Assembly (NCBI GenBank): GCA_016180645.1
Contig: JACPAV010000036.1
Span: 1-34,015 of the forward strand
From: Nitrospirota bacterium
GTDB taxonomy: Bacteria; JACPQY01
Length of the DNA stretch: 34,015 nucleotides
Direction: 5' to 3'
Positions 1 through 17,050 of the stretch are shown piece after piece. The notes under the pieces are model-generated. The model searched no databases, was not told the DNA's origin, and was given only the letters and a program-made list of their open reading frames with translations. Numbering within the stretch: position 1 is the stretch's first letter; every line of letters starts with the position of its first letter. The position numbers and the translations under genes are program-made.

Positions 1-3000
1 GTTATTCGTCACGGCTACGTTCGGCGAAGGCGTGCCGTTGTAGTTGGCGTCGGTGCTGGTGGAACCTGAGAACACGATGGAGTAGGCGATGTTGCCATCC
101 TGAACCGCGTCATCCACGCCGGTGACCGTGACGGTCTGCGGACTGTTCCAGTTGAGATTCGTGAAGATGAGCGAGGCCGGGCCGACCGTGCCCTCGGTCG
201 TGTCGTTTGAACTGTAGTTGACCGTGACGTCCGCCGTGGGTGAGGAAGTCAGGGACACGGTAAAGGTGGCCGTCCCGCCCGCTTCGGTCGTGTTCCCGCT
301 GATTGTGCTCACGTTGTAGCCCGGCGTATCGTCGTCCGTGTTCGTCACGGAAACATCGACGGGATCGAGACCGTTGTAACTTGTGTCCGTGCTCGTCGCC
401 GCCCCCGTCGTGATCGTGTAGGCGATGTTCCCGTCCGCCGCGACGTCATCCACGCCGGTGACAGTCACCGTCTGAGGTGTGTTCCAGTCGGCGCTCGTGA
501 AGGTCAGGGAGACCGGGGAGACCGTGCCTTCGGTCGTATCCGTGCTGGAGAGGCCGATCGAGACGTTGGCCGTGGGTGGCGTGTTCAGGACCACCGTGAA
601 GGTCGCCGTGCCGCCCAGTTCGGTCGTGTTCCCGCTGATTGCGCCGACCGTGATTCCGGATGGGGCGATGGAGAAGTTTGCGTTCGAATCGTCAGCCGAA
701 CTGTTGCCGTAGGCGTCCGTGGCCGTGAGCCTGACGCGCACGGTGCTCGAGCTGATCGCGGGCACCGTCCACGTGTAGCTCCCATCGTTCGTTTCCCCGC
801 TCGCAATCGAGTTCAGGTAGCTGCCTCCGCTGTCCGTCGAATAGTCGAGGGCGAGGGTGAAGGCGCTCGCGTCGGTCAAGTCCGCGTTGTTCCACGTGAT
901 CGACCTACTCTGCCCTTGGGTCCACAGTTCGGCGCCATTGGGGGCGATCAGAGTGGAGATGAGAATCGATGGGGCGGCGATATCATTATTCAGAGCTGTG
1001 GGGGAGGACTGGTTCCCGACCGCGTCGGTGGCGGTGACATATAAGGAAGGGTTGGTATTGTCGCCGATGGCCGTGGCCCCGAAGGAGCCATCGGCCAGTG
1101 ATGTGACGGTCGTGATGAGTGATGTGAGAAGACCATCGGAGTAGATTTTGACGGTGGAATTGGCTTCGACGGCTCCGGCTGCTCCACCGACGGTATCATT
1201 CGTACCCGGTGTATTCTGGGTGACCGTCAGTTGCGCAGGGGCCGGCGCGGGAGGCGGAGTCGAGTCCACCGTCCACGTGTACGAGGCGGGCGACGGATCC
1301 GCGTTGCCCGCGGGGTCATTGGCCCGGACGGAGAAACTGCGAGGACCATCGGCGAGGCTACTGTACGCCTTGGGTGAGGCGCAGGTGCTGTAGGCGCCGG
1401 AATCGAGCTTGCATTCGAAAGTTGCGGCCGAATCGGGACTGTTGAAGGTGAACGACGCCGAGGTCTGATTGGTCAGGGATGAAGGCTGACCGCTGATGGA
1501 CGTTTCAGGGGCCGTCGTATCGAGCGTGACGGTTGCCGTCAGGCTTGAGGTGGCGTTGCCCAGGGAGTCGCGGAACCGGACGTAGACGGTGCGCGTTCCG
1601 TCGGCGCCGGAAGACAAGGTCCAAGGCTTGGAAGCGGAATAGGGCTCATAGGGTGAAAAGGACGTATTGTCGTTTGAGAACGCCATCTCGGGCGCGTCCG
1701 TCGCCGACAAGGTCAGCGTGACCGCCGTGGAGTTCACCGCCGCCGCCCCGGAATTGATCTTTACCGACCCGCCCGTCGGCGCGCTCGTCTTGACCGTCCA
1801 CGTGTACCCGGCGGGCGTCGGATCCACGTTGCCTGCGGCATCGGCGCCGCGGACAGTGAACGAATGAGGACCATCGGATAGGGGTCCGGAGATCGAGTGA
1901 GGAGAGGCGCAGGAGGAGGCCGGAGCAGAGTCGAGAGCGCATTGGAAAATGGCGGACGTATCCGGGGAGGTGAAAGTGAACGTCGCACTCGTCTGATTGC
2001 TGAGAGCTGATGGCTGAGAGCTGATCGCTGTATCGGGCGGCGCGGTGTCCACTGTCCACGTGAACGAAGCGGGAGTCGAGTCGATGTTTCCTGCTGCGTC
2101 CTTCGCCCGGACGTTGAAGGTGTTCGACCCTTCGACGGCGCTCAGGGTGAGCGGGGCGGTGCAGGCGGCGGCGGAAGCCGAATTCAAAGAACAGGCAAAG
2201 GAGCACCCCTCACCCCCGCCCTCTCCCCCAAGGGGCGAGGGAGAATTCTTATCGGAGCAGGAGAAAGAAAAGGTACCGGTGCCCTTGTTGCTCAGAACTG
2301 ATGGCTGAACGGTGATGGCTGTTTCGGGCGGGGTTGTGTCGACCGTCCACGTGAACAGGGCGGGAGTGAGATCCTTGTTGCCCGCCTTGTCGATGGCGGA
2401 GACGGAGAAGGTGTTCGACCCTTCGACGGCGCTCAGGGTGAGCGGGGAGGCGCAGGGCGACGGGGCGCCGGAGTTGAGGGAGCACGTGAAGGTTGATTCC
2501 GGCTCAGAACTGGTAAACTCAAAGGTCGCCGACGCCTGGTTGCTGAGAGCCGGCGGCTGAGAGCTGATCGCTGTTTCGGGCGGAGCGGAATCCTTCAGCG
2601 CCAGCTTGAACGGCACGGACAGCGGCGTGGGGTCCGTATTGCCCAGCGCGTCCGCCGCCTTCACCAGCAGGACGTGATCGCCATCGTCGGCCGCAGGAAC
2701 ATAGGACGCCGGGCAAACCCTGAAGGCTCCCCCGTCCAGCGCGCACTTGAACAGGCAGGCCGCCTTGTCGCATTTGAACACGAAGACAGAATCGGGCTTT
2801 GTCACCGTGCACGAGGTAGGGGCGGCGCCTGAACCGGTTTCCGCTCGACGTTTCGCCCCCAAGGGTGGCGCGCAGGGAGTGGAGATCAGCGTGGTGTCCG
2901 GTGGGTTCAGGTCCACTGCCTTCAGTTCGATCTTTACGTCCGCCGGCGCGGCGACGCCCGCTGCCTTGAAGTCGTCCTTCACTTTCTGATCGAGTTGAAC

Positions 3001-3981
3001 GCTCAGCGTCTCGAAAGCCACCTGCACTTGTTCATTGGTGAGCTTCTTGTTGTCCCCATTGGAGGCGGACGCAACCGCCTGCTGGAGAATGGCGGCCACC
3101 CCTCCGGGCTGGCCAGGCGATGCCGAACCCAGCGCCACCGCCACCGCCACCTCGGTCAAGGTGGACACACCGTCACCGTTCAGGTCGGGCAATTCCACTT
3201 CGTTCGTGTTGATCGTCGTCGGCTTGATGTCCAGGGTCAGAACGGGGGCGCCCGCCTTGCCGCCGGATGCCGTTGCATCGGCCTGCTGGACTTTCACCTC
3301 GACCGTGGTGGTGACACGAACATACTCCACATCCTGCCGCTGTCTCGACCGAACGCGCGTGCTGATCGCGTTCTGGCCGTCTTGCGCCGATTTCTTGGGA
3401 AGATCGAACGAGAGTTGGAAGACGAAAGCGGTCTGGCCGTCGTCCTCCACGGGCGGTTGGCCGCTTGCCTGCTTTCGCGCGGCAGCACCTCTCACGCCCC
3501 CTCTCACGCCTCCCCGAACCCCACCGCGGACGCCTGAAGCCTCGGCCCCTCTCACGCCCCCCCGCACGCCGCCTTGCTCCGATCCGCGGACCCCACCCCT
3601 GATGCCGCCCCGGATCCCGTCGGCCACAAGCTGATCGTTCACGTACACGTCGGCCACCACATCTTTGGAGTCCGCCGCCTGAATCCCGTTCAGCATCGCC
3701 GCCACCTCGGGGGAGAGCGGAATGTCCATGTCCATCGGTACCACGTCTTTTTTCGCCTCCGGCAGTTCGATTTTGCGCATGCAGGCGGGAAGGAAGGTGA
3801 GCAGTGAGCAGCAAGTGGTGAGGAGCAGGGCGAGAGTCGAGAACCGAGAACCGTGAACCGTGAACCGCGAGGAGTAGGGCGAGAGGCGCGAGGCGGGAGT
3901 CGTGAGCCGGGGAGAAACAAAAGAAGAAAAAGCAAAAGGAACGCGCGAGACTTCGCGCAGACTCAGCCCTGCCAACGACAT
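1..3981 (-). CDS. Giant surface lipoprotein A (3' end runs off the window, >1327 aa): shared N-terminal GVRG-repeat domain, multiple bacterial Ig-like repeats, Calx-beta-like repeats
   Basis: Absent from the ORF track because the frame has no stop in the window. Manual translation from ATG at 3981 gives a hydrophobic stretch plus LPAC lipobox, IPLSPEVAAMLNGI, (GVRG)n, LPDLNGDGVSTLTE, several Ig repeats (ATFxCSLD...C.SP...TF.V.A.D.AGN.D.TP...TWTVD) and, at 1-660, two TTExGGTATFTVxL...WNxPQTVTVTGVDD Calx-beta-like units. A promoter sits 6 nt upstream. Confidence 0.85.
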   Translation of the reverse strand, partial: MSLAGLSLREVSRVPFAFSSFVSPRLTTPASRLSPYSSRFTVHGSRFSTLALLLTTCCSLLTFLPACMRKIELPEAKKDVVPMDMDIPLSPEVAAMLNGIQAADSKDVVADVYVNDQLVADGIRGGIRGGVRGSEQGGVRGGVRGAEASGVRGGVRGGVRGGVRGAAARKQASGQPPVEDDGQTAFVFQLSFDLPKKSAQDGQNAISTRVRSRQRQDVEYVRVTTTVEVKVQQADATASGGKAGAPVLTLDIKPTTINTNEVELPDLNGDGVSTLTEVAVAVALGSASPGQPGGVAAILQQAVASASNGDNKKLTNEQVQVAFETLSVQLDQKVKDDFKAAGVAAPADVKIELKAVDLNPPDTTLISTPCAPPLGAKRRAETGSGAAPTSCTVTKPDSVFVFKCDKAACLFKCALDGGAFRVCPASYVPAADDGDHVLLVKAADALGNTDPTPLSVPFKLALKDSAPPETAISSQPPALSNQASATFEFTSSEPESTFTCSLNSGAPSPCASPLTLSAVEGSNTFSVSAIDKAGNKDLTPALFTWTVDTTPPETAITVQPSVLSNKGTGTFSFSCSDKNSPSPLGGEGGGEGCSFACSLNSASAAACTAPLTLSAVEGSNTFNVRAKDAAGNIDSTPASFTWTVDTAPPDTAISSQPSALSNQTSATFTFTSPDTSAIFQCALDSAPASSCASPHSISGPLSDGPHSFTVRGADAAGNVDPTPAGYTWTVKTSAPTGGSVKINSGAAAVNSTAVTLTLSATDAPEMAFSNDNTSFSPYEPYSASKPWTLSSGADGTRTVYVRFRDSLGNATSSLTATVTLDTTAPETSISGQPSSLTNQTSASFTFNSPDSAATFECKLDSGAYSTCASPKAYSSLADGPRSFSVRANDPAGNADPSPASYTWTVDSTPPPAPAPAQLTVTQNTPGTNDTVGGAAGAVEANSTVKIYSDGLLTSLITTVTSLADGSFGATAIGDNTNPSLYVTATDAVGNQSSPTALNNDIAAPSILISTLIAPNGAELWTQGQSRSITWNNADLTDASAFTLALDYSTDSGGSYLNSIASGETNDGSYTWTVPAISSSTVRVRLTATDAYGNSSADDSNANFSIAPSGITVGAISGNTTELGGTATFTVVLNTPPTANVSIGLSSTDTTEGTVSPVSLTFTSADWNTPQTVTVTGVDDVAADGNIAYTITTGAATSTDTSYNGLDPVDVSVTNTDDDTPGYNVSTISGNTTEAGGTATFTVSLTSSPTADVTVNYSSNDTTEGTVGPASLIFTNLNWNSPQTVTVTGVDDAVQDGNIAYSIVFSGSTSTDANYNGTPSPNVAVTNN
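1993..2030. repeat. In-frame 7-bp repeat array (CTGAnnG x5); related arrays at 2291-2321 and 2536-2573
   Basis: ctgattg ctgagag ctgatgg ctgagag ctgatcg ctg; encodes TAISSQPSALSNQ on the minus strand. Confidence 0.75.
2128..2154. repeat. REP-like CCCTTCGAC-N4-CTCAGGGTGA element in frame; copies at 2419-2445 and 15356-15380, related motif at 6996-7023 (opposite orientation)
   Basis: cccttcgacggcgctcagggtgagcgg occurs twice in gene A; gene C has cccttcgacggtgctcagggtgaca; gene B has ccgctcgtcctgagcctgtcgaaggacg. Resembles, from memory, the widespread CCTGAGCnnGTCGAAGG intergenic repeat. Confidence 0.65.
2206..2243. repeat. REP-like CCCTCACCC...CCCTCTCCC...GGGnGAGGG hairpin element inserted in frame
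   Basis: cccctcacccccgccctctcccccaaggggcgagggag; encodes SPSPLGGEGGGEG between two Cys of an Ig loop that is only 4-8 aa in sister domains. Confidence 0.75.
3797..3915. repeat. Degenerate 7-bp array (17 in-phase units) encoding the signal region of lipoprotein A
   Basis: gtgagca gtgagca gcaagtg gtgagga gcagggc gagagtc gagaacc gagaacc gtgaacc gtgaacc gcgagga gtagggc gagaggc gcgaggc gggagtc gtgagcc ggggaga. Confidence 0.75.
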
Positions 3982-3987
3982 GCAACG

Positions 3988-4016
3988 TTTTTAGCAATCA
4001 CGCAATGTGATGTCAA
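3988..4016 (-). promoter_or_regulatory. sigma70-type leaderless promoter for lipoprotein A
   Basis: Minus strand TTGACA-N17-TAAAAA-N6-ATG(3981), with TG at the extended -10 position; the spacer contains an ATCAC-N5-GTGAT palindrome. Confidence 0.65.
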
Positions 4017-5555: not shown

Positions 5556-8500
5556 ATGCTTGTTCGGCGGACGCGGGACGTTCTCCTCGCGTTCGTCGTG
5601 GCCCTGTCCTCGTCCGTGCTGATCGGTTGTTCCGCGTGCGACGGCAAGAAGGGCGACAGGTCGGTCGAGCTTGAGATCGGCCTGCCGCTCACACCTGAGC
5701 AGGCCGCGGCGTTGGAGGGCATCCGGGCCGGCGTGCGGGGCATCAGCCGGGTGGACGATCTGTCGCGTGTGGATGAGCTTTCGCGTGTGGACGAACTGAG
5801 CCGGGTTGATGAGATCAGCCGGGTGGACGAGATCTCCCGTGTGGACGAGGCTCTCCGAGGGGCTGCGGCCAACCTCCTCATCGACGACCAAGCCGTGGCG
5901 GAGGGCCGGCGCGGAGAAATCGTCTCCGGCGTGCGCACCGGCGTCCGTCTGGGCCGACGCGCCGCTCCGGGCCGTAAAGTCGTGAATGGGGAAGCACGGG
6001 AGGGACGCGCTCCGTTGCGTCCGCCCGACCGTCAGGGCCACGATGGAGCGTGGCTCTTCAGGGGTCACGATCTTGCGATCTCACGCAAGCAAGCGCCGGA
6101 AGCTCCCTCCTTCTCGTTTCATATCCTCGTCTCGATTTCGGAGAAGTTCCTCCACGCCGGCGAGAGGAGGCTTCGCCTTCAGGTCTTCCCTCCCGAGGAG
6201 CCGGAACTGATTCTGATCGACGTCCAGATGCCGCTCTCGGTGGAGGAGGAGAAGGGCAGGCCCGTCATCCCGGAGCAGGAGATCCCCGCCGAGCTTATTC
6301 AACTGCCCGACGGTGACGAGGACGGGGTATCCACGCTGGTCGAGACCATCACGGCCGGACCGGATTTCGCGCGAGACCCCGGCAAGAAACCCTCGGTTGA
6401 ACTGACACGAGGCATGCTCGTCCTGCTCGGCAAGAATCTGGGGCAAACCCTCCAGGCCGAACAGGGCATCACCGTGGAGGTTTCCATCGATCCCCAGGCC
6501 ATCACGCTCGATCCGCCGGAGACGGCGGGAGCCTACGTTCCGCCCGAACCGGGGACTCCCGCCGCTCAGCTTCCCCCGGGCGTGACGATTGTCGGCATCC
6601 CCACCACTTTCACCTTCTCCTGCTCCGGTACGGCCGGGACGGCCGCGTGCAAGTACGCGTGCTCCATCGACGGCGGCCCGTATTTCGGATGCGCTTCGCC
6701 TTTCACGTGGAAGTTCGACACGCCGGGAGAGCATCGGATCCAGGTCAAATCCGCTGACAACCTCGGCAATACGGACACCTCCCCCGTCGAGTTGATCGTC
6801 AATGTCCTCACCCCGGAGGTCGCCGCTGATCCCGAAGCCGTGAAACAGTACGACCTCCCGCCCAACACGATCATCTTCCAAGAGCCGCCGGCCGTAAGCA
6901 GTGAACTTTCAGCCACGTTCACCTTCACGTCTTCCGAGGTCAACACCACGTTCGAGTGCTCGCTCGATGGCGCTCCGTGGGCGGAGTGCTCAAGTCCGCT
7001 CGTCCTGAGCCTGTCGAAGGACGGCTCGCACACTTTCCGTGTCCGTGCCATCGACTCCGCGGGGCAAGCCGACCCCACACCCGCCACATACACCTGGACC
7101 ATCGACACCACCGCACTCGAAACGACCATCACCAGCGGGCCAACCGCCACCACCGGATTTACCTCGGCAACTTTCGAGTTTTCCTCTACAAGCCCTGGCG
7201 CCACCTTCGAGTGCTCCCTCGACGGAACAGGCTTTGCCCCGTGCACTTCCCCCCACTTGATCACTGGACCACTTTCTTCGGGCACCCACACGTTCAGGGT
7301 TCGCGCAAAGGCTGTTTCAGGAATCGTCGATCCCACACCCGCCACGTACACCTGGACGGTCAACACCACTCTCCTCGACACGACGCTCGCAGGGGCGGGC
7401 TTGCCCGCCCTCCTCACCACCCAGACGACGGCCACGTTCGAGTTCACCGCATCCAATCCCGCGGCCACGTTTGAATGCGAACTGGACGGGGGCGGGTTTT
7501 CGGCCTGTTCATCACCCAAAGCCTATTCCGGGCTCACGTCCGGTTCCCATACGTTCAAAGTGCGAGCGAAAGATACCTCCGGCAACCTGGACTCCACGCC
7601 CGCTTCCTACACATGGACCGTGGACGTGACACCTCCGACTTTTGCCGGACTTGCGACCGCCACGGCCGTCTCAACGACCCAGATCGACCTCGCTTGGACG
7701 GCGGCGACTGACAACGTGAGCGCCTCAAACAAGATCATCTATGAGATTTGCCAATCGACGACCTCCGGCACCTGCGCCACAACCTTCACCGCCACGTACA
7801 CCACCACTGCCGGCGCCATTTCCTATTCCGCTCAGTCCTTAGTCCTCAGCACTCAGTACTTCTTTATGGCCCGCGCCAAAGACGAACTCGGAAACCGCGA
7901 CACCAACACCACCGAAAACTCCGCCGCCACCCTCGGTGGCCCGCTACCTCCCGGCGGGAATGTCCAGGCCGTCGCCACCCATCTCGGCGATCACACCTGT
8001 TCTCTCATCTCGGACGGGACGGTCAAGTGCTGGGGGAACAACCTTTATGGTCAGCTTGGGGACGGAACAACCACCAATCGCCCAACGCCCGCCGGCGTTC
8101 CTTCACTGCCGAATGCTATCGCCATAGCTGGAGGGAACACTCACACCTGCGCGCTCATAGTGGGCGGGACCGTCAGGTGCTGGGGAGAAAACTCTTACGG
8201 TAAGCTGGGGGACGGAACGACCACCAACAAGTGGACGCCTGTTCCAGTGGCGTCTCTTTCCAACGCGGTCGGGATAGCGGGAGGGGGCATTCACGCCTGC
8301 GCACTCTTGGCGGACGGGACGGTCAAGTGCTGGGGAAGCAATAACTATGGAAACCTCGGGGACGGAACAACAGTAGACAAGTGGACCCCTGTCCCGGTGG
8401 CGTCCCTATCCAACGCCATCGGAATGGCGGGAGGGTACTATCACACCTGCGCACTCTTGGCGGACGGGACGGTCAAGTGCTGGGGATCGAACCAGTACGG

Positions 8501-10151
8501 TCAGGCGGGAGATGGAACAAGCCCCCCACCGCCAAGCAATGAAAAGAAACTGACACCGGTGGTCGTGAGCGCTCTCTCGAACTCCGTGACCATTGGCGTG
8601 GGAGGCTATCACACCTGCGCACTCTTGGCGGACGGGACGGTCAAGTGCTGGGGACGCAATAACTACGGGCAGATCGGGGACGGAACGACCACCAACAGGT
8701 TGGCTCCTGTCGCCGTGTCCGCGTTGAGTGCGGCTGTCTCGGTGGTGGGCGCGGGTGCGCACACTTGCGCCCTCTTTTCGAACGGGACGGTTCAATGTTG
8801 GGGATACAATCTTGAAGGTGAACTTGGGGATGGGACGACCGCCAACAAGTGGACGCCTGTCCCGGTGGCGTCTCTTTCTAACGCCATCGGGACGGCAGGA
8901 GGGACCGCTCACACCTGCGCGCTCATAGCGGACGGGACGGCAAGATGCTGGGGGTGGAATCCTTCCGGTCAGCTTGGGGATGGGACGACGGTGGACAAAT
9001 CGACGCCCGTGGCCGTCACGAATCTCGGCGGCCCGCTCGGCGTGAAACTCCCCCGTCTCCACGAGTCCACCGCCTCCGGCGCGCCGTCTCGCCCCTTCCG
9101 CGAAGGGCTTACGAACCACCTCGGCTATCACACCTGTTCCCTTCTCTCCGACGGCACAGTCAAATGCTGGGGACGCAATGGCTATGGCCAGCTTGGGGAC
9201 GGGACGCTGGTGCAAAAGACGACCCCGGTTGCCGTTTCCACGCTCTCCGGCGCCGTCGCCGTCACGGGAGGTCTCTATCACACCTGCGCTCTGGCCTCCA
9301 ATGGAACGGTCAAGTGCTGGGGACGCAACCTTTACGGCCAACTGGGCGACGGGACGACCACGGATTCGCCCACTCCTGTGGCCGTGATCTCCTTGTCGAA
9401 CGGCGTCGCCGTCACGGGAGGTTACTATCACACCTGCGCACTGGCCTCCAATGGAACGGTCAAATGCTGGGGATACAACTATAGCGGCCAACTGGGCGAC
9501 GGGACGTTCGCGCAGAGGACGACCCCGGTTACCGTTTCCACGCTCTCCGGCGCCGTCGCCGTCACGGGAGGCTTCGATCACACCTGCGCGCTGGCCTCCG
9601 ATGGAACGGTCAAATGCTGGGGATCCAACGATTCCGGCCAACTGGGCGACGGGACGACCACGGATAAGACGACCCCGGTTGTCGTCTCCACGCTCTCCGG
9701 CGCCGTCGCCGTCACGGGAGGTCTCGATAACACCTGCACGCTGGCCTCCGATGGAACGGTCAAATGCTGGGGATGGAACGCTAACGGCCAACTGGGCGAC
9801 GGGACGACCACGGATAAGACGACCCCGGTTGCCGTTTCCACGCTCTCCGGCGCCGTCGCCGTCTCGGGAGGTGACGAGCACACCTGCGCGCTGGCCTCCA
9901 ATGGAACCGTGAAATGCTGGGGATGGAACGCTAACGGCCGGCTGGGCGACGGGACGACCACGCAGAGGACGACCCCGGTTGCCGTTTCCACGCTCTCCGG
10001 CGCCGTCGCCGTCTCGGGAGGGAACGAGCACACCTGCGCGCTGGCCTCCGATGGAACGGTCAAATGCTGGGGACGCAACACTTACGGCCAACTCGGCGAC
10101 GGGACGACGATCACCCGCCTCACCCCCGTCGCCGTGACGAACCTGCCGTGA
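5556..10151 (+). CDS. Giant surface lipoprotein B (1531 aa): shared N-terminal domain, 4 Ig-like repeats, FN3 domain, 14 RCC1/BLIP-II repeats (two 7-bladed propellers)
   Basis: LIGC lipobox; LPLTPEQAAALEGIRAG; LPDGDEDGVSTLVE; Ig repeats; FN3 (IDLAWTAATD...QYFFMARAKD); 14x HTCAL.SDGTVKCWG.N..GQLGDGT. Confidence 0.92.
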   Translation: MLVRRTRDVLLAFVVALSSSVLIGCSACDGKKGDRSVELEIGLPLTPEQAAALEGIRAGVRGISRVDDLSRVDELSRVDELSRVDEISRVDEISRVDEALRGAAANLLIDDQAVAEGRRGEIVSGVRTGVRLGRRAAPGRKVVNGEAREGRAPLRPPDRQGHDGAWLFRGHDLAISRKQAPEAPSFSFHILVSISEKFLHAGERRLRLQVFPPEEPELILIDVQMPLSVEEEKGRPVIPEQEIPAELIQLPDGDEDGVSTLVETITAGPDFARDPGKKPSVELTRGMLVLLGKNLGQTLQAEQGITVEVSIDPQAITLDPPETAGAYVPPEPGTPAAQLPPGVTIVGIPTTFTFSCSGTAGTAACKYACSIDGGPYFGCASPFTWKFDTPGEHRIQVKSADNLGNTDTSPVELIVNVLTPEVAADPEAVKQYDLPPNTIIFQEPPAVSSELSATFTFTSSEVNTTFECSLDGAPWAECSSPLVLSLSKDGSHTFRVRAIDSAGQADPTPATYTWTIDTTALETTITSGPTATTGFTSATFEFSSTSPGATFECSLDGTGFAPCTSPHLITGPLSSGTHTFRVRAKAVSGIVDPTPATYTWTVNTTLLDTTLAGAGLPALLTTQTTATFEFTASNPAATFECELDGGGFSACSSPKAYSGLTSGSHTFKVRAKDTSGNLDSTPASYTWTVDVTPPTFAGLATATAVSTTQIDLAWTAATDNVSASNKIIYEICQSTTSGTCATTFTATYTTTAGAISYSAQSLVLSTQYFFMARAKDELGNRDTNTTENSAATLGGPLPPGGNVQAVATHLGDHTCSLISDGTVKCWGNNLYGQLGDGTTTNRPTPAGVPSLPNAIAIAGGNTHTCALIVGGTVRCWGENSYGKLGDGTTTNKWTPVPVASLSNAVGIAGGGIHACALLADGTVKCWGSNNYGNLGDGTTVDKWTPVPVASLSNAIGMAGGYYHTCALLADGTVKCWGSNQYGQAGDGTSPPPPSNEKKLTPVVVSALSNSVTIGVGGYHTCALLADGTVKCWGRNNYGQIGDGTTTNRLAPVAVSALSAAVSVVGAGAHTCALFSNGTVQCWGYNLEGELGDGTTANKWTPVPVASLSNAIGTAGGTAHTCALIADGTARCWGWNPSGQLGDGTTVDKSTPVAVTNLGGPLGVKLPRLHESTASGAPSRPFREGLTNHLGYHTCSLLSDGTVKCWGRNGYGQLGDGTLVQKTTPVAVSTLSGAVAVTGGLYHTCALASNGTVKCWGRNLYGQLGDGTTTDSPTPVAVISLSNGVAVTGGYYHTCALASNGTVKCWGYNYSGQLGDGTFAQRTTPVTVSTLSGAVAVTGGFDHTCALASDGTVKCWGSNDSGQLGDGTTTDKTTPVVVSTLSGAVAVTGGLDNTCTLASDGTVKCWGWNANGQLGDGTTTDKTTPVAVSTLSGAVAVSGGDEHTCALASNGTVKCWGWNANGRLGDGTTTQRTTPVAVSTLSGAVAVSGGNEHTCALASDGTVKCWGRNTYGQLGDGTTITRLTPVAVTNLP
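5745..5852 (+). repeat. Hexapeptide tandem repeat SRVD(D/E)(L/I/A) x6 (18-bp unit)
   Basis: Six units with mixed synonymous codons (Ser agc/tcg/tcc; Arg cgg/cgt). Confidence 0.9.
7389..7411 (+). repeat. GTAG-type REP-like hairpin in frame (AGAGLPAL); inverted twin at 15498-15520
   Basis: G(C/T)AGGGGCGGGC-TT-GCCCGCCCT; 24 nt identical in inverted orientation at 7391-7414 and 15495-15518. Confidence 0.7.
7981..9030 (+). repeat. Seven ~150-bp RCC1 coding repeats (propeller 1)
   Basis: Seven HTC/HAC...CWG.N..G units; blade 4 has a SPPPPSNEK insertion. Confidence 0.85.
9121..10148 (+). repeat. Seven near-identical 150-bp RCC1 coding repeats (propeller 2)
   Basis: Exact 150-nt period: units start at 9121, 9271, 9421, 9571, 9721, 9871 and 10021. 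Confidence 0.95.
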
Positions 10152-10259
10152 TACCGAACAGTATTTTGAAATAGGGAAATACTTCCTGACCGCCTCGCAA
10201 GTAGTGCTGGCCACCAGAGTCATTAGGGATAGTGGGAAGGTAGATGTAAAAGTAGTATC

Positions 10260-10399
10260 GGACGCATGGGAATGCGTCCCTACCACAATTCGGCATCCGT
10301 AGGGAGCGATTCCCATCGCTCCGATTGTGCGGAGACATAGGAATGTCTCCCTACGAGAAAACTACGAAGAAAATCGCCCGATGTAAAATCGGGCGCTAC
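10260..10399. repeat. Cluster of four GTAG-type REP hairpins between convergent genes
   Basis: GGACGCAT-GGGA-ATGCGTCCCTAC (10260-10283); GTAGGGAGCGAT-TCCC-ATCGCTCC (10299-10322); GGAGACAT-AGGA-ATGTCTCCCTAC (10331-10354); CGCCCGAT-GTAAA-ATCGGGCGCTAC (10375-10399). Confidence 0.85.
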
Positions 10400-10420
10400 G
10401 AAGAGAGGGTAAAAGATGTC

Positions 10421-11917: not shown

Positions 11918-12004
11918 ATGCCTGATGCCCTTGCGTGCTGCTCTGAGCGTACAGGCCCGCGGGGATCCTTCACGTGTCAACGCGTGGAGGACCCTGGGGG
12001 GGTC

Positions 12005-15000
12005 TCACTGCCCGCCGGTGGTGGTCTTGAGGACGGTGCCGCTCTCGCCGACGGCGTAGCCGGTGCTTCCGTTTCCGGGAAATTGAACGCCACGAAGAAG
12101 TACGGTTGTCCCGGACGTCTGGCTTATCCAGTTCCCCCCGCCGTCCGTCGTCTTAAGAATCGTCCCACTAGCTCCCACAACGTAGCCGGTGTTCGCATTG
12201 ATGAAATAGACGCCGTAAATCGCAGACGTCGTACCGGACGTTTGCGACGACCACGCGGTGCCGCCATCGGATGTCTTCAGGATCGTGCCGCTGTCCCCGA
12301 CCACGTATCCCGTGGTCGCATCCACCGGGAAATGTATCGCCCGGAGCAGATTTGTCGTGCCCGAGGTCTGGGTCTGCCACACATTGCCGCTGTTCGTGGT
12401 CCGGATGATGGTCCCGCTTACCCCCACGGCAAAAGCCGATGTTGACGTCGCAAACTGGATGGCGTTGAGTTGATTACTGGTTCCCGAGCTTTTGCTGACC
12501 CAGCTTGCCCCGCCGTTTGTCGTCTTATAGAGCGCGCCGCTCGAACCCACGAACCAGCCGGCGGTCGTATCAAGGAAATGAACACCATAGAGGGTGTTGC
12601 TGATCGCCGGGGACTGGTCGGTCCAGCCCGTTCCTCCATCGGTCGTCTTGAGAACCTTGCCGGAAGCGCCCACGGCCCAACCTGTTGTGGTGTCAACGGG
12701 AAAGTGCATATCGTAAAGATCGGTCGTAATACCTGACGATTGCGCAGCCCATGTACCACCGCTATCCGTAGTCTTGATGATTGTCCCAGAGGCGCCCACG
12801 GCATATCCGGTTGCGCTCACGGGGAAGTGAACTGCATAGAGAATCTTTCCGGTTCCGGCTGTCTGATCCGCCCAGCTTGTGCCGCCGTTGGTGGTTTTCA
12901 GCGCCGTCCCGTCTACACCCACAATGTATCCCGTTGTCGCGTCTACAGGAAAATTCGCACTCCACAAATCGGATGTTGTGCCGGACGTCTGGGCAGCCCA
13001 AGTGGCCCCGCTGTCCGTCGTCTTGTAGATCTTTCCACCGGTCCCTGCGATGTACCCGGTTGTTGTGCCTCCCACGAATCGAACGGTATAGAAATCGGTC
13101 GTTGTGTTCGGCGAATCCTGAGCGGACCAATTCGTCCCGCCGTCCGTCGTTTTGAGGACCTTCGAGGGATTTGTGCATGCCCAGCCGCAGGAGGTAGACA
13201 AAGTCACCGCGTACCCCGTGGTTGCGTCCACGGGGAAGTGGACGGAGTAAATTGGCATTGTGGTCCCGGAGGTTTGGGCCGTCCAGGTGGCGCCGCTGTT
13301 CGTGGTCTTGAGAATCGTGCCGCTGCCACCAATGGCGTACCCCGTGGTTGCGTCCACGGGGAAATGCACGCCTTCCAGGAAGTTCGTTGTCCCGGAGGTT
13401 TGGGCCGTCCAGGTGGCGCCGCTGTTCGTGGTCTTGAGAATCGTGCCGCTGCTTCCGACCGCGTAGCCCGTCGTCGCGTCCACGGGGAAATGGACGCCGT
13501 ACAGGTTGTTTGTTACCCCGGAGGTTTGGGCCGTCCAGATGGCGCCGCTGTCCGTTGTCTTGAGAATCGTGCCGGTGTTGCCGACCGCGTAGCCCGTCGT
13601 CGCGTCCACGGGGAAATGGACAGCGTAGAGACGATTGATGGTACCGGATGCTCCGCAGGTAACCGCCCAGGTTGCGCCCCCATCCGTCGTCTTGAGGATC
13701 ATTCCCCGGTCGCCGACGCTGTAGCCGGTCAGGTTGTTCACAAAATGCGTGCCGTATAGCGTCATTCCCGTAGGCTTCCGTTGCACTTCGGCCCAGGAGC
13801 CGGCCGGGCACGTGGGAGGGGCAACGGGGGCCGCGCTGACCTGCACCGTGTTGGTTTCCACATTCCCGGCTTCGTCGACTGCCCGAACGACAAAGTAGTA
13901 GGTCGTGCCCGTTGTGAGGCTGTCCACCCCGTAACTCACGGCACCGGCCGCCGTGGTGTAGGTGGTCGTAAAGGTCGTCTGGCACGTGCCGGTGGTGGTG
14001 GATTGGCAGATTCGATAAATTATGGCTGCGCTTGCGCTCACGGCGTCGGTGGCGGCCGTCCAGGTGAGGTTGATCCGAGTGGCGGAGGCGGAGGCCGCGG
14101 ACGACGCGCCGGAGAATGTGGGAGGCGTTGTGTCTACAACTACGGTCACGCCGTTGGAGGCGGTCCATGCGGCGATCTGGCCAAGCGTATCGACGGCGCG
14201 GACGCAGTTGTAGTACGTTGTGCTGGCCACCAAGCTAAGACTCGTGGTTGTCTTCGATGTGACCAGTGCTACGTCTGTAGTGGCGACGATATTCCCCGCG
14301 CAAGCGGTTGTCGTGCTCAAATTGTAATCATACCGCTGGAGCCCGCTTCCCGCGTCGCTGAATCCGCTCCAATTGACGTTCATGGTGGTGGTGGAAGACT
14401 GCGAGGAGACATCGGCTCCCGTACCATCATTAACGGTTCCGGTAGCCGGGGCCGCGGTGTCGCAGGTTCTCGTGACCGCTACGCCTCCGCCGGTATTGCC
14501 CGCGGCATCGGTGGCGGCCATGTTGAGCGTCAAGGTTTCGCCGTTCGCGCACGCGATCGCCGTTTTGGAGCATGTACCCGAGGAAAACGCGGCCGCCGCC
14601 CACTCCGTGTCGCACGCGCCGTCCGTTGATTTGCAGTATTGGCAACTCGTGATGCTCGATCCCGAATCTGAAAAAGCCGCCGAGAGATCGAAAGAGCCGT
14701 CCACGTGGGTGGCGGTGGCCGTGTTGGCCGGGGTGACGGTTCCCGCCACCGGCGCGCCGATATCGATCGTCCACGCGGTCGAGGCGGGGGAGGCGTCCGT
14801 GTTGCCCGCGGCGTCCTTCGACCTCACCTGGAAAGTGCGGGAGCCCGCCATGAGACCGGAGTACACCTTGGGAGACGCGCACGCCGAATAGCCGCCCGAG
14901 TCGATTTCGCATTCGAACGTTGCGCCGGAATCCGGGGCGCTGAAACTGAACGACGCGGATGTGGTGTTCGTGGGGTTGGGCGGCTGGGCGGTGATCGACG

Positions 15001-17050
15001 TGTCCGGGGCGGTCAGATCCACCGTCCAAGTATGGGAGGCAGGCGTAGCGTCTGCGTTCCCGGCAGCATCGACGGCGCGCGTACTGAAGCTGTGAGACCC
15101 TTCTGCCAGCGAAGTGGGTGCTGTGAAGGGCGATGAGCAGGCGGCGTACGCGGCCGAGTCGAGCTTGCACTCGAATCTAGCTGTGGATTCCGGCGACGTG
15201 AAGGTGAACGAGGCCGTGGTGGAGTTGGTCGGGTCGGTCGGCTTGCTGGTGATGGAGGTATCCGGCGGGGTCAGATCGACGGTCCACGTGAAGGTCACGG
15301 GGGTTGGATCCTTGTTCCCGGTCTTGTCCACGGCGGCAACGGAGAAGGTGTGAGACCCTTCGACGGTGCTCAGGGTGACAGGGGACACGCAGGAGGAGAA
15401 GGCGGCAGAGTCGAGGGAGCACTGGAAGGAAACGGGCGCGGACGGATTGGAATCCGTCCCTACGAATTGGAACGTGGCGGAGGTTTGGTTGGTCAGGAGG
15501 GCGGGCAAGCCCGCCCCTACGAGGGATGTATCCGGAGGCGTCTTGTCGCAATCGGCCGGGCAGGAGGCCTCGGTCTCGCCCGCCTCGCACACCTTGTTGC
15601 CGCAGACAATGGCCGGAAGTACCGTGAATTTGATCTCCGCGGGCGTCAGGTCCTTGTTGCCGATGGCGTCAGCGGCCTGCACACGAAGCGTGTGGTCCCC
15701 AGGGCTCAGGGTTCGGGGATCAGGGGTCAGGGGAGAAGCGCAGGGGGCAAAAGAGGCGCCGTCCAGGGAGCAGCGGAAGGCGCAGAAATTTTCATTGCAC
15801 GTCAGGGTTAGGGTGATTTGTTCTCCGCTCTTGATTGACGCGCCACTCGCCACTGGCAACGCGCCACTCACCGCGCTCAGCGCGGTGTCGGGCGGCGTCA
15901 AATCGACCGGCTTCACCTCTACGAGTGTTTTCACCCCTTGATCGGCGAGCTCCTTTTGGAGATTCTGAGCGAAGGACGCGGAGACGGCCTGGGCTTGTTC
16001 CTCCGTAGGCTTCTGGGCCGGGTCCTGGGCAACCTGAAGGGCCTGTTGTATCCCTGCTTCCTTCGCGATCACGGCCAACTCCACCAATGTGGAGACTCCA
16101 TCGCCATCGACGTCGGGGAGAACCACGTCGTTCAAGGCGATAGGCGTTTCTTCGATTTCGATCTCGAAAGCAGGGGTCAGGGCTCCGGGATCAGGGGTCA
16201 GTCCGGAGTCCGGCCCGCCTTGCTGATCCCCGACCCCTGAACCCTGAACCCTTAACTTCACTGTGGTTTGGACTTCGATGAGGGTTGTGGTCGCGTCCGT
16301 CGCGGGCCGAACGCGGGTGGTCAGCGTGTACAAGCCATCGGATGCCAGGGCGATCGGCAGATAGAAAGTGATCTCCATGCCCAGCGCGAGCGCATCCTGC
16401 GCTTGCCGTTTCACGCACCCTCCGCAGCCATCCCTGGCGCTCCGGGTACGGTCAGCCGTCCTGGCACCATGATTCGTGAATCGTGAATCGTCAGGAGCGG
16501 CCGTACCTGCCGCATTGTCTTGCGCGTCACTCATCACGGACCACTCGCCACTTCTTCGGGGTGGGGCCCCCGGGAGTCCCTTTCCGCCGCCGATGGCCGC
16601 GCGGACGCCCGTCCGAACGCCGGCTCGAATCCCCGTGCGAACGCCGGCGCGCACGCCTTCGGCAACTACTTGATCGTTCCACAAGATGTCTGCCGCTAAT
16701 CCGTCTTCGACCACCGCGCGAACGCCATCCTGCTGACCGGCGCGTACCCCTTGCTCAGTCCCGGCGCGCACGCCCTGTTCTGTCTCGGCACGAATGCCGT
16801 CTGTTGCAATCGTCCGAACCCCTGCCCGCACGCCCGCACGCACGCCTTCAAGGAGCGCCGCCTGCTCCGGCGTAAGCGGAATGCCGACGATTACTTCGAT
16901 CGAATCGTCCGGAATGTGATGAGAAGATTTTTTCTTCTTGTTGGAGCAGGACGAAACAAGCAGAATCGTGAGTGAGGCGAGCAGCAACGCCCATGCGAAC
17001 CCCGAGACCCTCCACGGCCGTACGATCTGGCCCTCCATTGTAGACCTCAT
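12005..17050 (-). CDS. Giant surface lipoprotein C (~1681 aa): shared N-terminal domain, Ig-like repeats, Cys-rich repeat, FN3 domains, 14 YCF48/BNR-type blades (two 7-bladed propellers)
   Basis: VSSC lipobox; IPLTPEQAALLEGVRAG; LPDVDGDGVSTLVE; CGNKVCEAGETEASCPADC; 14x L..VHFPVDATTGYAVG..GTILKTTDSGATW; ATG at 17050 overlaps the upstream stop (ATGA). Confidence 0.92.
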   Translation of the reverse strand: MRSTMEGQIVRPWRVSGFAWALLLASLTILLVSSCSNKKKKSSHHIPDDSIEVIVGIPLTPEQAALLEGVRAGVRAGVRTIATDGIRAETEQGVRAGTEQGVRAGQQDGVRAVVEDGLAADILWNDQVVAEGVRAGVRTGIRAGVRTGVRAAIGGGKGLPGAPPRRSGEWSVMSDAQDNAAGTAAPDDSRFTNHGARTADRTRSARDGCGGCVKRQAQDALALGMEITFYLPIALASDGLYTLTTRVRPATDATTTLIEVQTTVKLRVQGSGVGDQQGGPDSGLTPDPGALTPAFEIEIEETPIALNDVVLPDVDGDGVSTLVELAVIAKEAGIQQALQVAQDPAQKPTEEQAQAVSASFAQNLQKELADQGVKTLVEVKPVDLTPPDTALSAVSGALPVASGASIKSGEQITLTLTCNENFCAFRCSLDGASFAPCASPLTPDPRTLSPGDHTLRVQAADAIGNKDLTPAEIKFTVLPAIVCGNKVCEAGETEASCPADCDKTPPDTSLVGAGLPALLTNQTSATFQFVGTDSNPSAPVSFQCSLDSAAFSSCVSPVTLSTVEGSHTFSVAAVDKTGNKDPTPVTFTWTVDLTPPDTSITSKPTDPTNSTTASFTFTSPESTARFECKLDSAAYAACSSPFTAPTSLAEGSHSFSTRAVDAAGNADATPASHTWTVDLTAPDTSITAQPPNPTNTTSASFSFSAPDSGATFECEIDSGGYSACASPKVYSGLMAGSRTFQVRSKDAAGNTDASPASTAWTIDIGAPVAGTVTPANTATATHVDGSFDLSAAFSDSGSSITSCQYCKSTDGACDTEWAAAAFSSGTCSKTAIACANGETLTLNMAATDAAGNTGGGVAVTRTCDTAAPATGTVNDGTGADVSSQSSTTTMNVNWSGFSDAGSGLQRYDYNLSTTTACAGNIVATTDVALVTSKTTTSLSLVASTTYYNCVRAVDTLGQIAAWTASNGVTVVVDTTPPTFSGASSAASASATRINLTWTAATDAVSASAAIIYRICQSTTTGTCQTTFTTTYTTAAGAVSYGVDSLTTGTTYYFVVRAVDEAGNVETNTVQVSAAPVAPPTCPAGSWAEVQRKPTGMTLYGTHFVNNLTGYSVGDRGMILKTTDGGATWAVTCGASGTINRLYAVHFPVDATTGYAVGNTGTILKTTDSGAIWTAQTSGVTNNLYGVHFPVDATTGYAVGSSGTILKTTNSGATWTAQTSGTTNFLEGVHFPVDATTGYAIGGSGTILKTTNSGATWTAQTSGTTMPIYSVHFPVDATTGYAVTLSTSCGWACTNPSKVLKTTDGGTNWSAQDSPNTTTDFYTVRFVGGTTTGYIAGTGGKIYKTTDSGATWAAQTSGTTSDLWSANFPVDATTGYIVGVDGTALKTTNGGTSWADQTAGTGKILYAVHFPVSATGYAVGASGTIIKTTDSGGTWAAQSSGITTDLYDMHFPVDTTTGWAVGASGKVLKTTDGGTGWTDQSPAISNTLYGVHFLDTTAGWFVGSSGALYKTTNGGASWVSKSSGTSNQLNAIQFATSTSAFAVGVSGTIIRTTNSGNVWQTQTSGTTNLLRAIHFPVDATTGYVVGDSGTILKTSDGGTAWSSQTSGTTSAIYGVYFINANTGYVVGASGTILKTTDGGGNWISQTSGTTVLLRGVQFPGNGSTGYAVGESGTVLKTTTGGQ
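13205..13625 (-). repeat. Near-identical 126-bp (42-aa) propeller-blade repeats
   Basis: ggtttgggccgtccag recurs at 13271, 13397 and 13523. Confidence 0.85.
15440..15463 (-). repeat. GTAG-type REP hairpin in frame (VGTDSNPS)
   Basis: ggacggattggaatccgtccctac is 21/24 identical to the intergenic REP at 10260-10283, including one compensatory stem change. Confidence 0.8.
16171..16256. repeat. Two inverted 7-bp arrays (CAGGGGT-type / CTGAnCC-type) in frame; related arrays at 15700-15734 and 16467-16555
   Basis: caggggt cagggct ccgggat caggggt cag ... ctgatcc ccgaccc ctgaacc ctgaacc; encodes VQGSGVGDQ...LTPDPGALTP. Confidence 0.75.

What the first reader, a model, noticed from the sequence alone, without database searches (positions are those of the whole stretch)
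1..17050. Family of three modular giant lipoproteins: conserved unknown N-domain, Ig stalk, swappable head
Seen: genes A (<1-3981), B (5556-10151) and C (12005-17050) share, in order, a lipobox Cys, (I/L)PL(T/S)PExAAxLxG(I/V), A(D/N)xxx(N/D)DQxVA(E/D)G, G(V/I)R(G/A/T) micro-repeats, a basic-QA motif (RKQA/KRQA), LPDx(D/N)xDGVSTLxE and xLxPP(D/E)T, then Ig repeats. Their distal regions are unrelated: Calx-beta-like repeats, 2x7 RCC1 blades, 2x7 YCF48/BNR blades. I do not recognise the ~300-aa N-domain. Inference: it is a common export, anchoring or polymerisation module that displays interchangeable binding heads, i.e. a polymorphic adhesin or target-recognition system.
Basis: partly seen in the sequence, partly recalled or inferred. 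Interest (0 to 1): 0.82.

Follow-up and report, generated by a model that had tools for sequence, protein, structure and literature searches.

The report
Expanded lipoprotein family with swappable propellers
An uncultured groundwater bacterium spends nearly 3% of its genome on about 30 giant lipid-anchored proteins that share an undescribed base domain and a stalk but carry different propeller-shaped heads, most likely a repertoire of surface binding proteins.

Summary
All seven N-terminal motifs occur in the same order in genes A, B and C. The N-regions are homologous with the Gly/Arg repeats cut away (E 4e-20, 3e-4, 4e-11).

The three genes are part of a family of 31 in this genome, 2.7% of the assembly. 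A sister genus has about 14 more. Nothing comparable turned up elsewhere: 24 full-length representatives among 1.84 billion proteins, and one other MAG among 185,579 species genomes.

The N-module matches no Pfam, NCBIfam or PDB family. AlphaFold folds it confidently (pLDDT 78.6) as a split Ig-like sandwich plus three helices. The Gly-Arg run is a disordered loop, and a DxDxDG-type loop is kept in 21 of 25 members.

Every complete head is a beta-propeller: 17 RCC1, then Kelch, FG-GAP, NHL and BNR. Heads are polyphyletic on the N-domain tree, and one pair shows a recent swap.

Four of six giant kinase/sigma-54 activators, including the window's gene D, lie beside family genes.

"Calx-beta" for gene A was not confirmed. 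Location and ligands are inferred only. By sequence, the scan had not met this module before.

The parts
1..3981 (-). Gene A, family member (1327 aa seen; C-terminus cut by the contig end)
3781..3981 (-). A: 67-residue signal peptide ending in lipobox LPAC (Cys67)
2905..3780 (-). A: conserved N-module. It holds IPLSPEVAAMLNGI (3682-3723), the Gly-Arg run (3487-3618), RKQA (3466-3477) and the DxNxDG loop (3151-3186). AlphaFold gives mean pLDDT 78.6.
643..2904 (-). A: stalk of OmpL47-type/Big_13 Ig-like repeats and further Ig-like domains
1..642 (-). A: two tandem units (112 and 102 aa) of unassigned family. Calx-beta is not confirmed.
5556..10151 (+). Gene B, family member (1531 aa)
5556..5630 (+). 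B: signal peptide and lipobox LIGC (Cys25)
5631..6512 (+). B: N-module, with SRVDE(L/I) hexapeptide repeats (DNA 5742-5849) and the DGDEDG loop (6309-6344)
6513..7937 (+). B: stalk of OmpL47-type/Big_13 repeats plus an Fn3-like domain. The stalk/head boundary is approximate, read from the sequence.
7938..10148 (+). B: head of two RCC1-like propellers (14 RCC1 repeats)
12005..17059 (-). Gene C, family member (1684 aa from the GTG at 17059; the ATG at 17050 is the likelier start)
16946..17050 (-). C: signal peptide and lipobox VSSC
15896..16945 (-). C: N-module, with IPLTPEQAALLEGV (16841-16882), 12 GxR units (16598-16846), KRQA (16400-16411) and the DVDGDG loop (16079-16114)
13838..15895 (-). 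C: stalk of OmpL47-type/Big_13 repeats, Big_3_3 and Fn3. The stalk/head boundary is approximate.
12008..13837 (-). C: head of BNR/YCF48-type propellers (13 blade motifs found by regex)
17320..17335 (-). Sigma-54-type -24/-12 box TGGCAC-N5-TTGCT pointing at gene C, in the C-D intergenic region
17453..22648 (+). Gene D: Ser/Thr kinase, STAND NTPase/TPR, GAF, sigma-54 AAA+ and HTH_8 (1731 aa), divergent from gene C. It is one of six paralogues, four of which lie beside family genes.

Best explanation
A, B and C belong to a lineage-restricted family of 31 paralogues of giant lipoproteins, all built on one plan.

1. A Sec/LspA signal ends in a lipobox Cys, which becomes the lipid anchor.
2. A tether of 17-32 residues follows, often basic.
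3. Next comes the conserved module of about 300 aa. It is a folded, membrane-proximal base or pedestal: an Ig-like beta-sandwich whose strands are interrupted by a disordered Gly-Arg loop of variable length, then a DxDxDG-type (probably Ca2+-binding) loop and three helices.
4. A rigid stalk of OmpL47-type Ig-like repeats follows.
5. One or two beta-propellers at the tip bind a ligand.

The constant base and first stalk unit give every paralogue the same attachment to the envelope, most likely the outer membrane facing outwards. Recombination within the stalk swaps heads, producing a repertoire of binding specificities. At least some members are switched on individually by neighbouring giant kinase/sigma-54 activators.

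Shown here: homology, copy number, restriction to the lineage, lipobox, predicted fold, head classes, head swapping, regulator adjacency. Inferred: outer-membrane or surface location, Ca2+ binding, the pedestal role, ligand binding, sigma-54 control.
For: Homology holds without the repeats.

Family size: 31 genes, 125.6 kb, 2.7% of the assembly.

Lipid anchor: a strict lipobox in 27 of 31 genes. Three more carry variant boxes (LSTSC, LSSSC, GPLGC). One broken gene has none. The Cys lies 17-32 residues before the PLxPE motif. Lgt, two LspA, LolA and Omp85 genes are present in the genome.

Fold: AlphaFold2 of A's module gives mean pLDDT 78.6 and pTM 0.74, with 168 of 341 residues at 90 or more. 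The Gly-Arg run at residues 74-112 scores 40-50. Modelled alone, the helical part gives pLDDT 85.6. The best structural matches are generic Ig, C2 and Fn3 sandwiches at Z 5.9 or less.

The module is not a decayed stalk repeat. hhalign matches only the PPDT overhang.

The DxDxDGxxxxxE loop is kept in 21 of 25 members.

Heads of the 22 complete genes: 17 RCC1, 1 FG-GAP, 1 NHL, 1 Kelch, 1 Kelch+NHL, 1 BNR. Of 9 relatives from elsewhere: 4 FG-GAP, 3 Kelch, 1 RCC1, 1 none.

Head swapping: see the tree. The pair C20_113706 (RCC1) and C57_14838 (NHL) is 68-88% identical over the first 400 aligned columns, about 47% in the stalk, and 20-30% after that. The NHL gene has no repeat of 90% identity or more elsewhere in the genome, so it is not an assembly chimera.

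Regulators: 4 of 6 full-length paralogues of D lie beside family genes. Sigma-54-like boxes point at the family gene at 3 of these loci. The background is 0.016 boxes per 450 nt.
Against: There are no localisation, expression or binding data. No RNA run holds the locus.

The lipobox alone does not say inner versus outer membrane, or which face.

The acidic loop is lost in 4 of 25 members (the C10_86760/C62 clade and C38), so Ca2+ binding cannot be essential to all.

Within 450 nt of the lipobox codon, only 3 of 34 upstream regions have a sigma-54 box at 9/11 or better. Two further boxes, beside regulators at other loci, appeared only in the wider intergenic scan. Regulator pairing therefore covers a minority of members.

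Propellers of the NHL/SGL, Kelch and BNR classes can be enzymes rather than binders.

The structure is a prediction from a shallow alignment of 32 rows drawn from two genomes.

Six members are cut by contig ends, so the head tally is incomplete.
Confidence: 0.55

Rival explanations
1. The N-module is a sorting or export domain. A dedicated outer-membrane machine recognises it and flips these lipoproteins to the cell surface, as the short LES motif does in Bacteroidota or as Slam does for neisserial surface lipoproteins. Its conservation would then reflect the machine, not a structural role.
For: - The module is always directly behind the lipid anchor, at a fixed distance of 17-32 residues.
- It is conserved across paralogues whose stalks and heads differ.
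- Two N-module-only lipoproteins exist, with ORFs of 245 and 376 aa.
- The genome has several large Omp85-family genes that could serve as translocons.
Against: No recurrent neighbouring transporter gene was found among 286 neighbour ORFs. Known lipoprotein surface signals are short linear motifs, not 300-aa folded domains (recalled knowledge). Slam (PF04575) was not found, but the control genomes were silent too, so that search is inconclusive.
Confidence: 0.15
2. The N-module is an oligomerisation or lattice-forming unit, so the proteins form trimers, fibres or an S-layer-like coat of stalks.
For: It is compatible with a helical subdomain and with the high gene dosage.
Against: No coiled-coil-like long helices are predicted; the helices are 12-25 residues long. 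Nothing in the sequence data points to a defined oligomer.
Confidence: 0.1
3. The proteins are periplasmic lipoproteins rather than surface proteins. The base domain, with its Arg-rich loop, would bind peptidoglycan or a membrane partner. The propellers would act as periplasmic enzymes or sensors.
For: Lipoproteins face the periplasm by default in most diderms (recalled knowledge). OmpA-domain proteins lie beside 2 family genes. NHL/SGL, Kelch and BNR propellers include enzymes (Pfam names).
Against: Chains of 1,300-2,900 aa with 3-8 Ig-like stalk units plus two propellers are far longer than a periplasm is wide (inference from domain counts). The stalk unit is of a type named after a surface-exposed Leptospira protein (search listing). 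OmpA neighbours occur at only 2 of 31 genes.
Confidence: 0.12
4. The resemblance is only low-complexity repeats plus common stalk repeats, so there is no real shared domain.
For: The Gly-Arg run draws low-complexity hits: an RGG-box protein in the PDB and unrelated Gly-rich proteins such as P0048 and P0056.
Against: The repeat-free parts still align at 4e-20, 4e-11 and 3e-4. A confident fold spans both sides of the repeat. A profile of 23 members finds full-length matches only in this lineage.
Confidence: 0.01

Closest known systems
Lipoprotein / Ig-like stalk / RCC1-propeller proteins of uncultivated bacteria (earlier scan notes e1-1152627, e1-3005632 and e1-1439377; Pfam PF25390/PF00415 architectures)
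   Same: Lipobox, a stalk of Ig-like or other repeats, one or two seven-bladed RCC1 propellers at the C-terminus, and unknown function.
   Different: Those notes name no such N-module, and by sequence the scan holds no look-alike. The module was found only in this lineage. Here the plan is multiplied to 31 genes and takes five propeller classes.
Leptospira OmpL47 and other spirochaetal surface proteins built of tandem Ig-like/barrel repeats
   Same: The stalk repeats pass NCBIfam's OmpL47-type barrel domain model NF047446 (58.8-72.9 bits against a cut-off of 40). OmpL47 is described as surface-exposed in the title and abstract listing of PMC2698987 (listing only).
   Different: The OmpL47 equivalog model is far from met (55 bits or less against 250). 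OmpL47 has no such N-module and no propeller head.
Surface-lipoprotein sorting systems (Bacteroidota lipoprotein export signal; Neisseria Slam/SLP)
   Same: An element just behind the lipidated Cys is shared by many otherwise different surface lipoproteins (recalled knowledge).
   Different: Those signals are short motifs or depend on a Slam barrel. Here the shared element is a folded domain of about 300 aa. No Slam match was found (inconclusive).
Polymorphic toxin / CDI-type proteins (constant N-terminal delivery part, variable C-terminal cassette)
   Same: The same evolutionary logic: a constant N-terminal part and a recombining C-terminal part.
   Different: No toxin or immunity domains. 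All C-termini are beta-propellers.
DxDxDG / EF-hand-like calcium loops (for example in dockerins and thrombospondin type 3 repeats)
   Same: The 12-residue pattern D-x-(D/N)-x-(D/N)-G-x5-E runs into a helix. The consensus itself is recalled.
   Different: There is a single loop, not a pair. No EF-hand, dockerin or TSP3 family match by Pfam or by fold search.

Membership tests
Bacterial lipoproteins (Lgt/LspA substrates) | Signal peptide ending in a lipobox [LVI][ASTVI][GAS]C | tested here: met
   Strict pattern in 27 of 31 genes; 3 variant boxes; 1 broken gene without one. A: LPAC. B: LIGC. C: VSSC.
Bacterial lipoproteins (Lgt/LspA substrates) | The genome encodes the processing and transport enzymes | tested here: met
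   Lgt (208 bits), two LspA (139 and 137 bits) and LolA (67.7 bits), all above Pfam cut-offs.
Bacterial lipoproteins (Lgt/LspA substrates) | The Cys is actually acylated, and the protein is membrane-bound | not testable with these tools
   Needs biochemistry.
OmpL47-type beta-barrel domain (NF047446) | Score above the curated cut-off of 40 bits | tested here: met
   A 58.8, B 60.8, C 72.9 bits.
Leptospira OmpL47 (equivalog NF047441) | Whole-protein score of 250 bits or more | tested here: not met
   55.2, 26.2 and 50.1 bits.
RCC1-like domain propeller (PF25390, PF00415) | Score above cut-off, about 7 repeats per propeller | tested here: met
   B: 520.8 bits (cut-off 150) and 14 RCC1 repeats. 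RCC1 heads in 17 of 22 complete family genes.
Ycf48 photosystem II assembly factor (NF010237 equivalog) | Whole-protein score of 326 bits or more | tested here: not met
   C scores 193.7 bits. Only the BNR-type propeller fold is shared (PF14870, 186.6 bits).
Calx-beta (PF03160), for A's distal repeats | A Pfam match | tested here: not met
   No hit at E<=0.01 on the whole protein, at E<=0.001 on the last 500 aa, or at E<=0.01 on one 112-aa unit.
EF-hand / DxDxDG calcium-binding loop | Pattern D-x-[DN]-x-[DN]-G-x5-E followed by a helix | tested here: met
   21 of 25 members. In the model a helix starts at residue 215, inside the loop at 207-218.
EF-hand / DxDxDG calcium-binding loop | Binds Ca2+ | not testable with these tools
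   Needs ITC or a structure.
Polymorphic toxin systems | C-terminal toxin domain with an adjacent immunity gene | tested here: not met
   All heads are propellers. No toxin family appears. There is no recurrent small downstream gene.
Slam-dependent surface lipoproteins | A Slam (PF04575) barrel in the genome | tested here: inconclusive
   No match in G000, but the family rang in 0 of 14 control genomes.
Any described domain family, for the N-module | Significant match in Pfam, NCBIfam, PDB sequences or solved folds | tested here: not met
   Pfam best E 0.2. NCBIfam gave only sub-threshold FliH hits on the repeat region. The PDB profile search gave only an RGG low-complexity hit. Foldseek found nothing at E<=1e-3. 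VIA best Z was 5.9 and 4.7, generic folds. For folds this is inconclusive rather than proof of novelty.

The most novel reading that the evidence does not exclude
The N-module is the shared docking or export handle of a lineage-specific surface-display system. Together with the giant kinase/sigma-54 activators beside some members, it would form a regulated repertoire: individual sensors switch on individual stalked propeller receptors, and recombination in the stalk re-deals the heads. That would be a bacterial cell-surface recognition repertoire of a kind not described before.
Probability: 0.18. Interest if true: 0.75.

Novelty: new variant of a known kind. Interest (0 to 1): 0.5.

Why it matters
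Lipid-anchored stalk-and-propeller proteins keep turning up in uncultivated bacteria, and nobody knows what they do.

This lineage offers unusually favourable material. A single genome holds 31 copies with a common, confidently folding and undescribed base domain. It shows five head classes, a visible recent head swap, and dedicated-looking regulators.

The material gives defined constructs for structure, Ca2+, lipid or LPS binding, and glycan or protein binding assays. It also gives a concrete hypothesis for how a groundwater bacterium of a barely sampled phylum (2 species held) organises its surface.

It also adds a new domain family to be modelled in Pfam or NCBIfam. At present the relatives are named only after their heads ("FG-GAP repeat protein").

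Tried and rejected
- **Self-association.** N-module residues 15-300, two copies, own alignment: verdict 'no answer', score 0.00, controls not run. This is no evidence either way.
- **ESM Atlas.** No usable hit.
- **Expression.** No RNA holder listed. Four DNA runs of one groundwater study hold the locus, and three may be its source.
- **Logan contigs.** They confirm the sequence piecewise but break in the stalk and propeller repeats, so they give no independent check of N-module/head linkage.
- **Joint 6993 to 15488.** An 'opposite strands' joint in three runs has only 31-32 nt on one side, so I read it as a shared k-mer and not an inversion.
- **Programmed inversion or shufflon between B and C.** Only 69-nt (81%) and 49-nt (71%) inverted matches, which are stalk homology. 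Rejected as unsupported.
- **Slipped-strand phase variation in the Gly-Arg run.** The coding DNA is not a clean tandem repeat.
- **N-module as a decayed stalk repeat.** hhalign matches only the PPDT overhang.
- **A common partner gene.** Among 286 neighbour ORFs within 8 kb, the only cluster with four or more members was the kinase/sigma-54 group. OmpA-domain proteins (2 loci), a subtilase, an ABC exporter and a GNVR protein are one-offs.
- **Sigma-54 promoters for the whole family.** 3 of 34 upstream regions.
- **Calx-beta for A.** Not found.
- **Viral relatives of the fold.** None.
- **EF-hand or dockerin folds.** Not among the listed matches for the helical part. This is absence from a list, not exclusion.
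- **Literature.** Full-text searches for RCC1 + lipoprotein + beta-propeller + Nitrospirae and for surface lipoprotein + Ig-like + beta-propeller + paralogous family + groundwater listed nothing on this family. I saw listings and abstract starts only.
- **Tool errors.** One search failed on a frame error and was corrected.
Full report
**What is in the window.** Six-frame ORF listing and translation give three giant genes:
- A: 1-3981, minus strand. Its C-terminus runs off the contig.
- B: 5556-10151, plus strand.
- C: 12005-17059, minus strand. The ATG at 17050 is the likelier start.

A fourth giant gene, D (17453-22648, plus strand), is divergent from C. D is a Ser/Thr kinase fused to a STAND-type NTPase/TPR region, a GAF domain, a sigma-54 AAA+ activator and an HTH_8 domain.

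**The observation.**
- lipobox Cys;
- (I/L)PL(S/T)PExAAxLxG(I/V);
- A(D/N)...DQxVA(E/D)G;
- 9, 3 and 12 G(V/I)R(G/A/T) units;
- RKQA/KRQA;
- D.(D/N).DG(V/I)STLxE;
- LxPP(D/E)T.

The N-regions align at 3e-26 (A-C), 1e-26 (B-C) and 2e-9 (A-B). I cut away everything up to the basic-QA motif, and the remainders still align at 4e-20, 4e-11 and 3e-4. The shared module is real.

**Is it a known family?** I found no match.
- Pfam on the three N-regions at E up to 10 gives nothing better than E 0.2.
- NCBIfam gives only sub-threshold FliH hits on the repeat region of C.
- A profile of 32 N-modules against all PDB sequences hits only an RGG-box low-complexity stretch.
- The ESM Atlas gave no usable hit.

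**Structure.** AlphaFold2 with a 32-row alignment folds A's module confidently: mean pLDDT 78.6, pTM 0.74, and 168 of 341 residues at 90 or more. The PLxPE motif forms a strand and a helix. The ADV.VN..VAEG motif and the first two GxRGG units form strands of the same beta-sandwich. The rest of the Gly-Arg run (residues 74-112 of the piece) is a low-confidence loop. The sandwich resumes after RKQA. Then come the acidic loop and three helices.

The "micro-repeats" are therefore a variable disordered insertion in a folded domain, not a linker between domains.

Fold searches gave no clear relative:
- Foldseek against the PDB and BFVD finds nothing at E<=1e-3.
- VIA-align against 48,161 chains gives at best Z 5.9 (2.9 A rmsd, 86 residues). 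The matches are generic Ig, C2, ASF1 and Fn3 sandwiches, below the level the tool calls meaningful.
- The helical part modelled alone (pLDDT 85.6) gives Z 4.7 or less and no Foldseek hit.
- One eukaryote-like filamin-repeat protein (P0036) matches profile positions 130-228. This fits an Ig-like fold and nothing more.

The module is not a decayed stalk repeat. hhalign between the N-module alignment and an alignment of nine stalk units matches only the PPDT overhang.

**Size of the family.** A profile of the three N-regions finds 43 matches on 27 ORFs in the window's own 4.7-Mb, 65-contig genome. A 23-row profile adds eight more ORFs. From these 35 ORFs I dropped three that share only the lipobox and Gly-Arg run (C31_89887, C3_213730, C23_92845). 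I counted the two pieces of a split gene on C27 once. That leaves 31 genes, about 125.6 kb or 2.7% of the assembly.
- 27 of the 31 have a strict lipobox.
- Three have variant boxes.
- The broken C27 gene has none.
- The Cys always lies 17-32 residues before the PLxPE motif.
- Four members stand in tandem on contig C10.
- Six are cut by contig ends, gene A among them.
- Two are N-module-only lipoproteins, with ORFs of 245 and 376 aa.

The genome encodes Lgt, two LspA, LolA and several Omp85 proteins, so it is a diderm with an outer-membrane lipoprotein route.

**Distribution.** The genome's GTDB phylum holds only two species in the collection. The other one (G001, a different genus, 84% complete) gives 20 matches, including at least 14 separate ORFs. 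Of 39 genomes from other families, one has a weak hit, and only to the PPDT/first-stalk part.

A profile search of 1.84 billion representative proteins returns 71 hits at E<=1e-3. Only 24 of them span most of the module. Eight of these are this genome's own proteins and 16 come from elsewhere. The other 47 match only the PPDT/first-stalk part or the Gly-rich run, or are fragments.

A pattern scan of 185,579 species genomes finds five loci, all in one other MAG (L063-L067). The word-based search of 5.8 billion proteins finds six proteins. The two that carry names are called after their other domains (FG-GAP repeat; fibronectin type III) and labelled Nitrospirae bacterium.

By sequence, the scan had not met the module before. 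It had met lipoprotein-stalk-RCC1 architectures without it in several other phyla.

**Stalk and heads.** The stalk units pass NCBIfam's OmpL47-type barrel model and match Big_13. They do not pass the OmpL47 equivalog.

I scanned the post-N-module part of every member in Pfam. The 22 complete genes carry:
- RCC1-like propellers, mostly two per gene: 17 genes, B among them;
- FG-GAP: 1;
- NHL/SGL: 1;
- Kelch: 1;
- Kelch plus NHL: 1 (2963 aa);
- BNR/YCF48-type: 1 (gene C).

C is not a Ycf48 orthologue (193.7 bits against a cut-off of 326).

Of the 16 outside representatives I examined 9: 4 FG-GAP, 3 Kelch, 1 RCC1, 1 without a head family. Seven were not scanned.

Every identified head is a beta-propeller.

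A's distal 112-aa units have no Pfam or PDB match, so "Calx-beta-like" is unconfirmed. Its closest paralogue (C22_1) has the same units and is cut as well.

**Swappable heads.** I built a maximum-likelihood tree of 34 N-modules: 25 from this genome and 9 from outside. Left out were the three fragments, two short members, the split gene and the seven unscanned representatives. On this tree RCC1 heads need 9 changes and Kelch is scattered. Many forks are weakly supported: 15 of 31 are drawn open.

The clearest case is a sister pair with SH-aLRT 100, C20_113706 (RCC1 head) and C57_14838 (NHL head). Their identity falls along the alignment:
- 68-88% over the first 400 aligned columns (N-module plus first stalk unit);
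- about 47% in the next 300;
- 20-30% thereafter.

Megablast shows that the NHL gene has no repeat of 90% identity or more elsewhere in the genome. An assembly chimera is therefore unlikely.

**Context.** All-against-all comparison of 286 neighbour ORFs within 8 kb of family genes finds one sizeable recurrent group, the relatives of gene D. The genome has six full-length paralogues of D. Four of them lie beside family genes:
- D next to C;
- C10:93117-98468 next to C10_86760;
- C28:90132-95453 next to C28_95502;
- C10:37719-42926 upstream of the C10 array.

 In G001, one of two long homologues lies directly beside a family gene.

Sigma-54-type boxes point at the family gene at three of these loci. 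For gene C the box is TGGCAC-N5-TTGCT at 17320-17335, minus strand. Boxes of this quality occur 0.016 times per 450 nt in the genome. Only 3 of 34 family upstream regions have one within 450 nt, so this control applies to a subset.

**How it most likely works.** The lipidated Cys and a short, often basic tether hold a folded base domain at the membrane. From it rises a stalk of Ig-like units, and the tip carries one or two propellers that bind something.

The base is constant because it serves the same attachment job in all copies. The Arg-rich loop and the acidic loop (the latter kept in 21 of 25 members) are candidates for contacts with an anionic surface and for Ca2+-dependent stiffening.

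The heads are exchanged by recombination in the stalk. Some members have their own kinase/sigma-54 switch.

Location, Ca2+ binding and ligand binding are inferences. The rivals remain open: export handle, oligomerisation unit, periplasmic role. The one test of self-association gave no answer.

**Verdict.** The finding is real and is a richer system than reported. The architecture belongs to a known, poorly understood kind. The N-module, the scale of the expansion and the regulator pairing are new.

Noticed in passing
window 17453-22648 (+); G000 C10:37719-42926, C10:93117-98468, C28:90132-95453, C18:168860-174106, C31:14241-19562: Six paralogues of a protein of about 1,750 aa that fuses a Ser/Thr kinase, STAND NTPase/TPR, GAF, a sigma-54 AAA+ activator and HTH_8. 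This is an unusual one-polypeptide kinase/enhancer-binding protein. Four of the six lie beside family genes.
   Followed up: partly
window 17050-17307 (-): An 86-aa ORF with a hydrophobic C-terminal segment lies between the sigma-54 box and gene C. Its stop overlaps C's ATG (ATGA). It has no paralogue in the genome, so it is unclear whether it is a real gene or a leader.
   Followed up: partly
L023:264-365 (G000 C10:56711-56812): A dispersed repeat of about 95 nt lies in frame inside the variable loop of the N-module of the FG-GAP paralogue. The genome holds four further long copies (94-102 nt) on C6, C8 and C11, and at least nine partial copies of about 37 nt.
   Followed up: partly
window 22944-29880: A region that looks like a mobile element: two tyrosine recombinases (22944-23933, 25665-26660), an HTH/M78-peptidase (ImmA/IrrE-like) protein and an FtsK/SpoIIIE translocase. 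Related recombinases lie within 8 kb of family genes on C38 and C63.
   Followed up: no
window 10421-11980 (-): A 519-aa protein between B and C. Only its C-terminal half (residues 270-496) is a UbiA prenyltransferase domain. The N-terminal 270 aa or so have no family.
   Followed up: no
window 4445-5041 (-): A small Ros/MucR-like zinc-finger regulator with a homing-endonuclease-associated repeat, between A and B.
   Followed up: no
window 6993 and 15488: Logan contigs of three runs join B's stalk to C's stalk on opposite strands, with only 31-32 nt on the shorter side. This is probably a shared k-mer. If real, it would be the junction of an inversion that exchanges the two heads.
   Followed up: partly
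G000 C63:14576-20443 (L062); C3:213730-218883 (L056); C31:89887-93225 (L055); C23:92845-97680 (L040): Other giant exported proteins in this genome. One is a 1955-aa CarboxypepD_reg/PKD/MopE/Fn3/RCC1 protein without the N-module, divergent from a family gene. Three are lipoproteins that share only the lipobox plus the Gly-Arg run; one of these has an NHL head.
   Followed up: partly
G000 C17:205152-205580 and C13:36242-36667: Two signal peptidase II (LspA) genes in one genome.
   Followed up: no
window 31137-33083 (-): A 648-aa protein with TPR and a C-terminal FHA domain, a possible partner of Ser/Thr kinase signalling.
   Followed up: no
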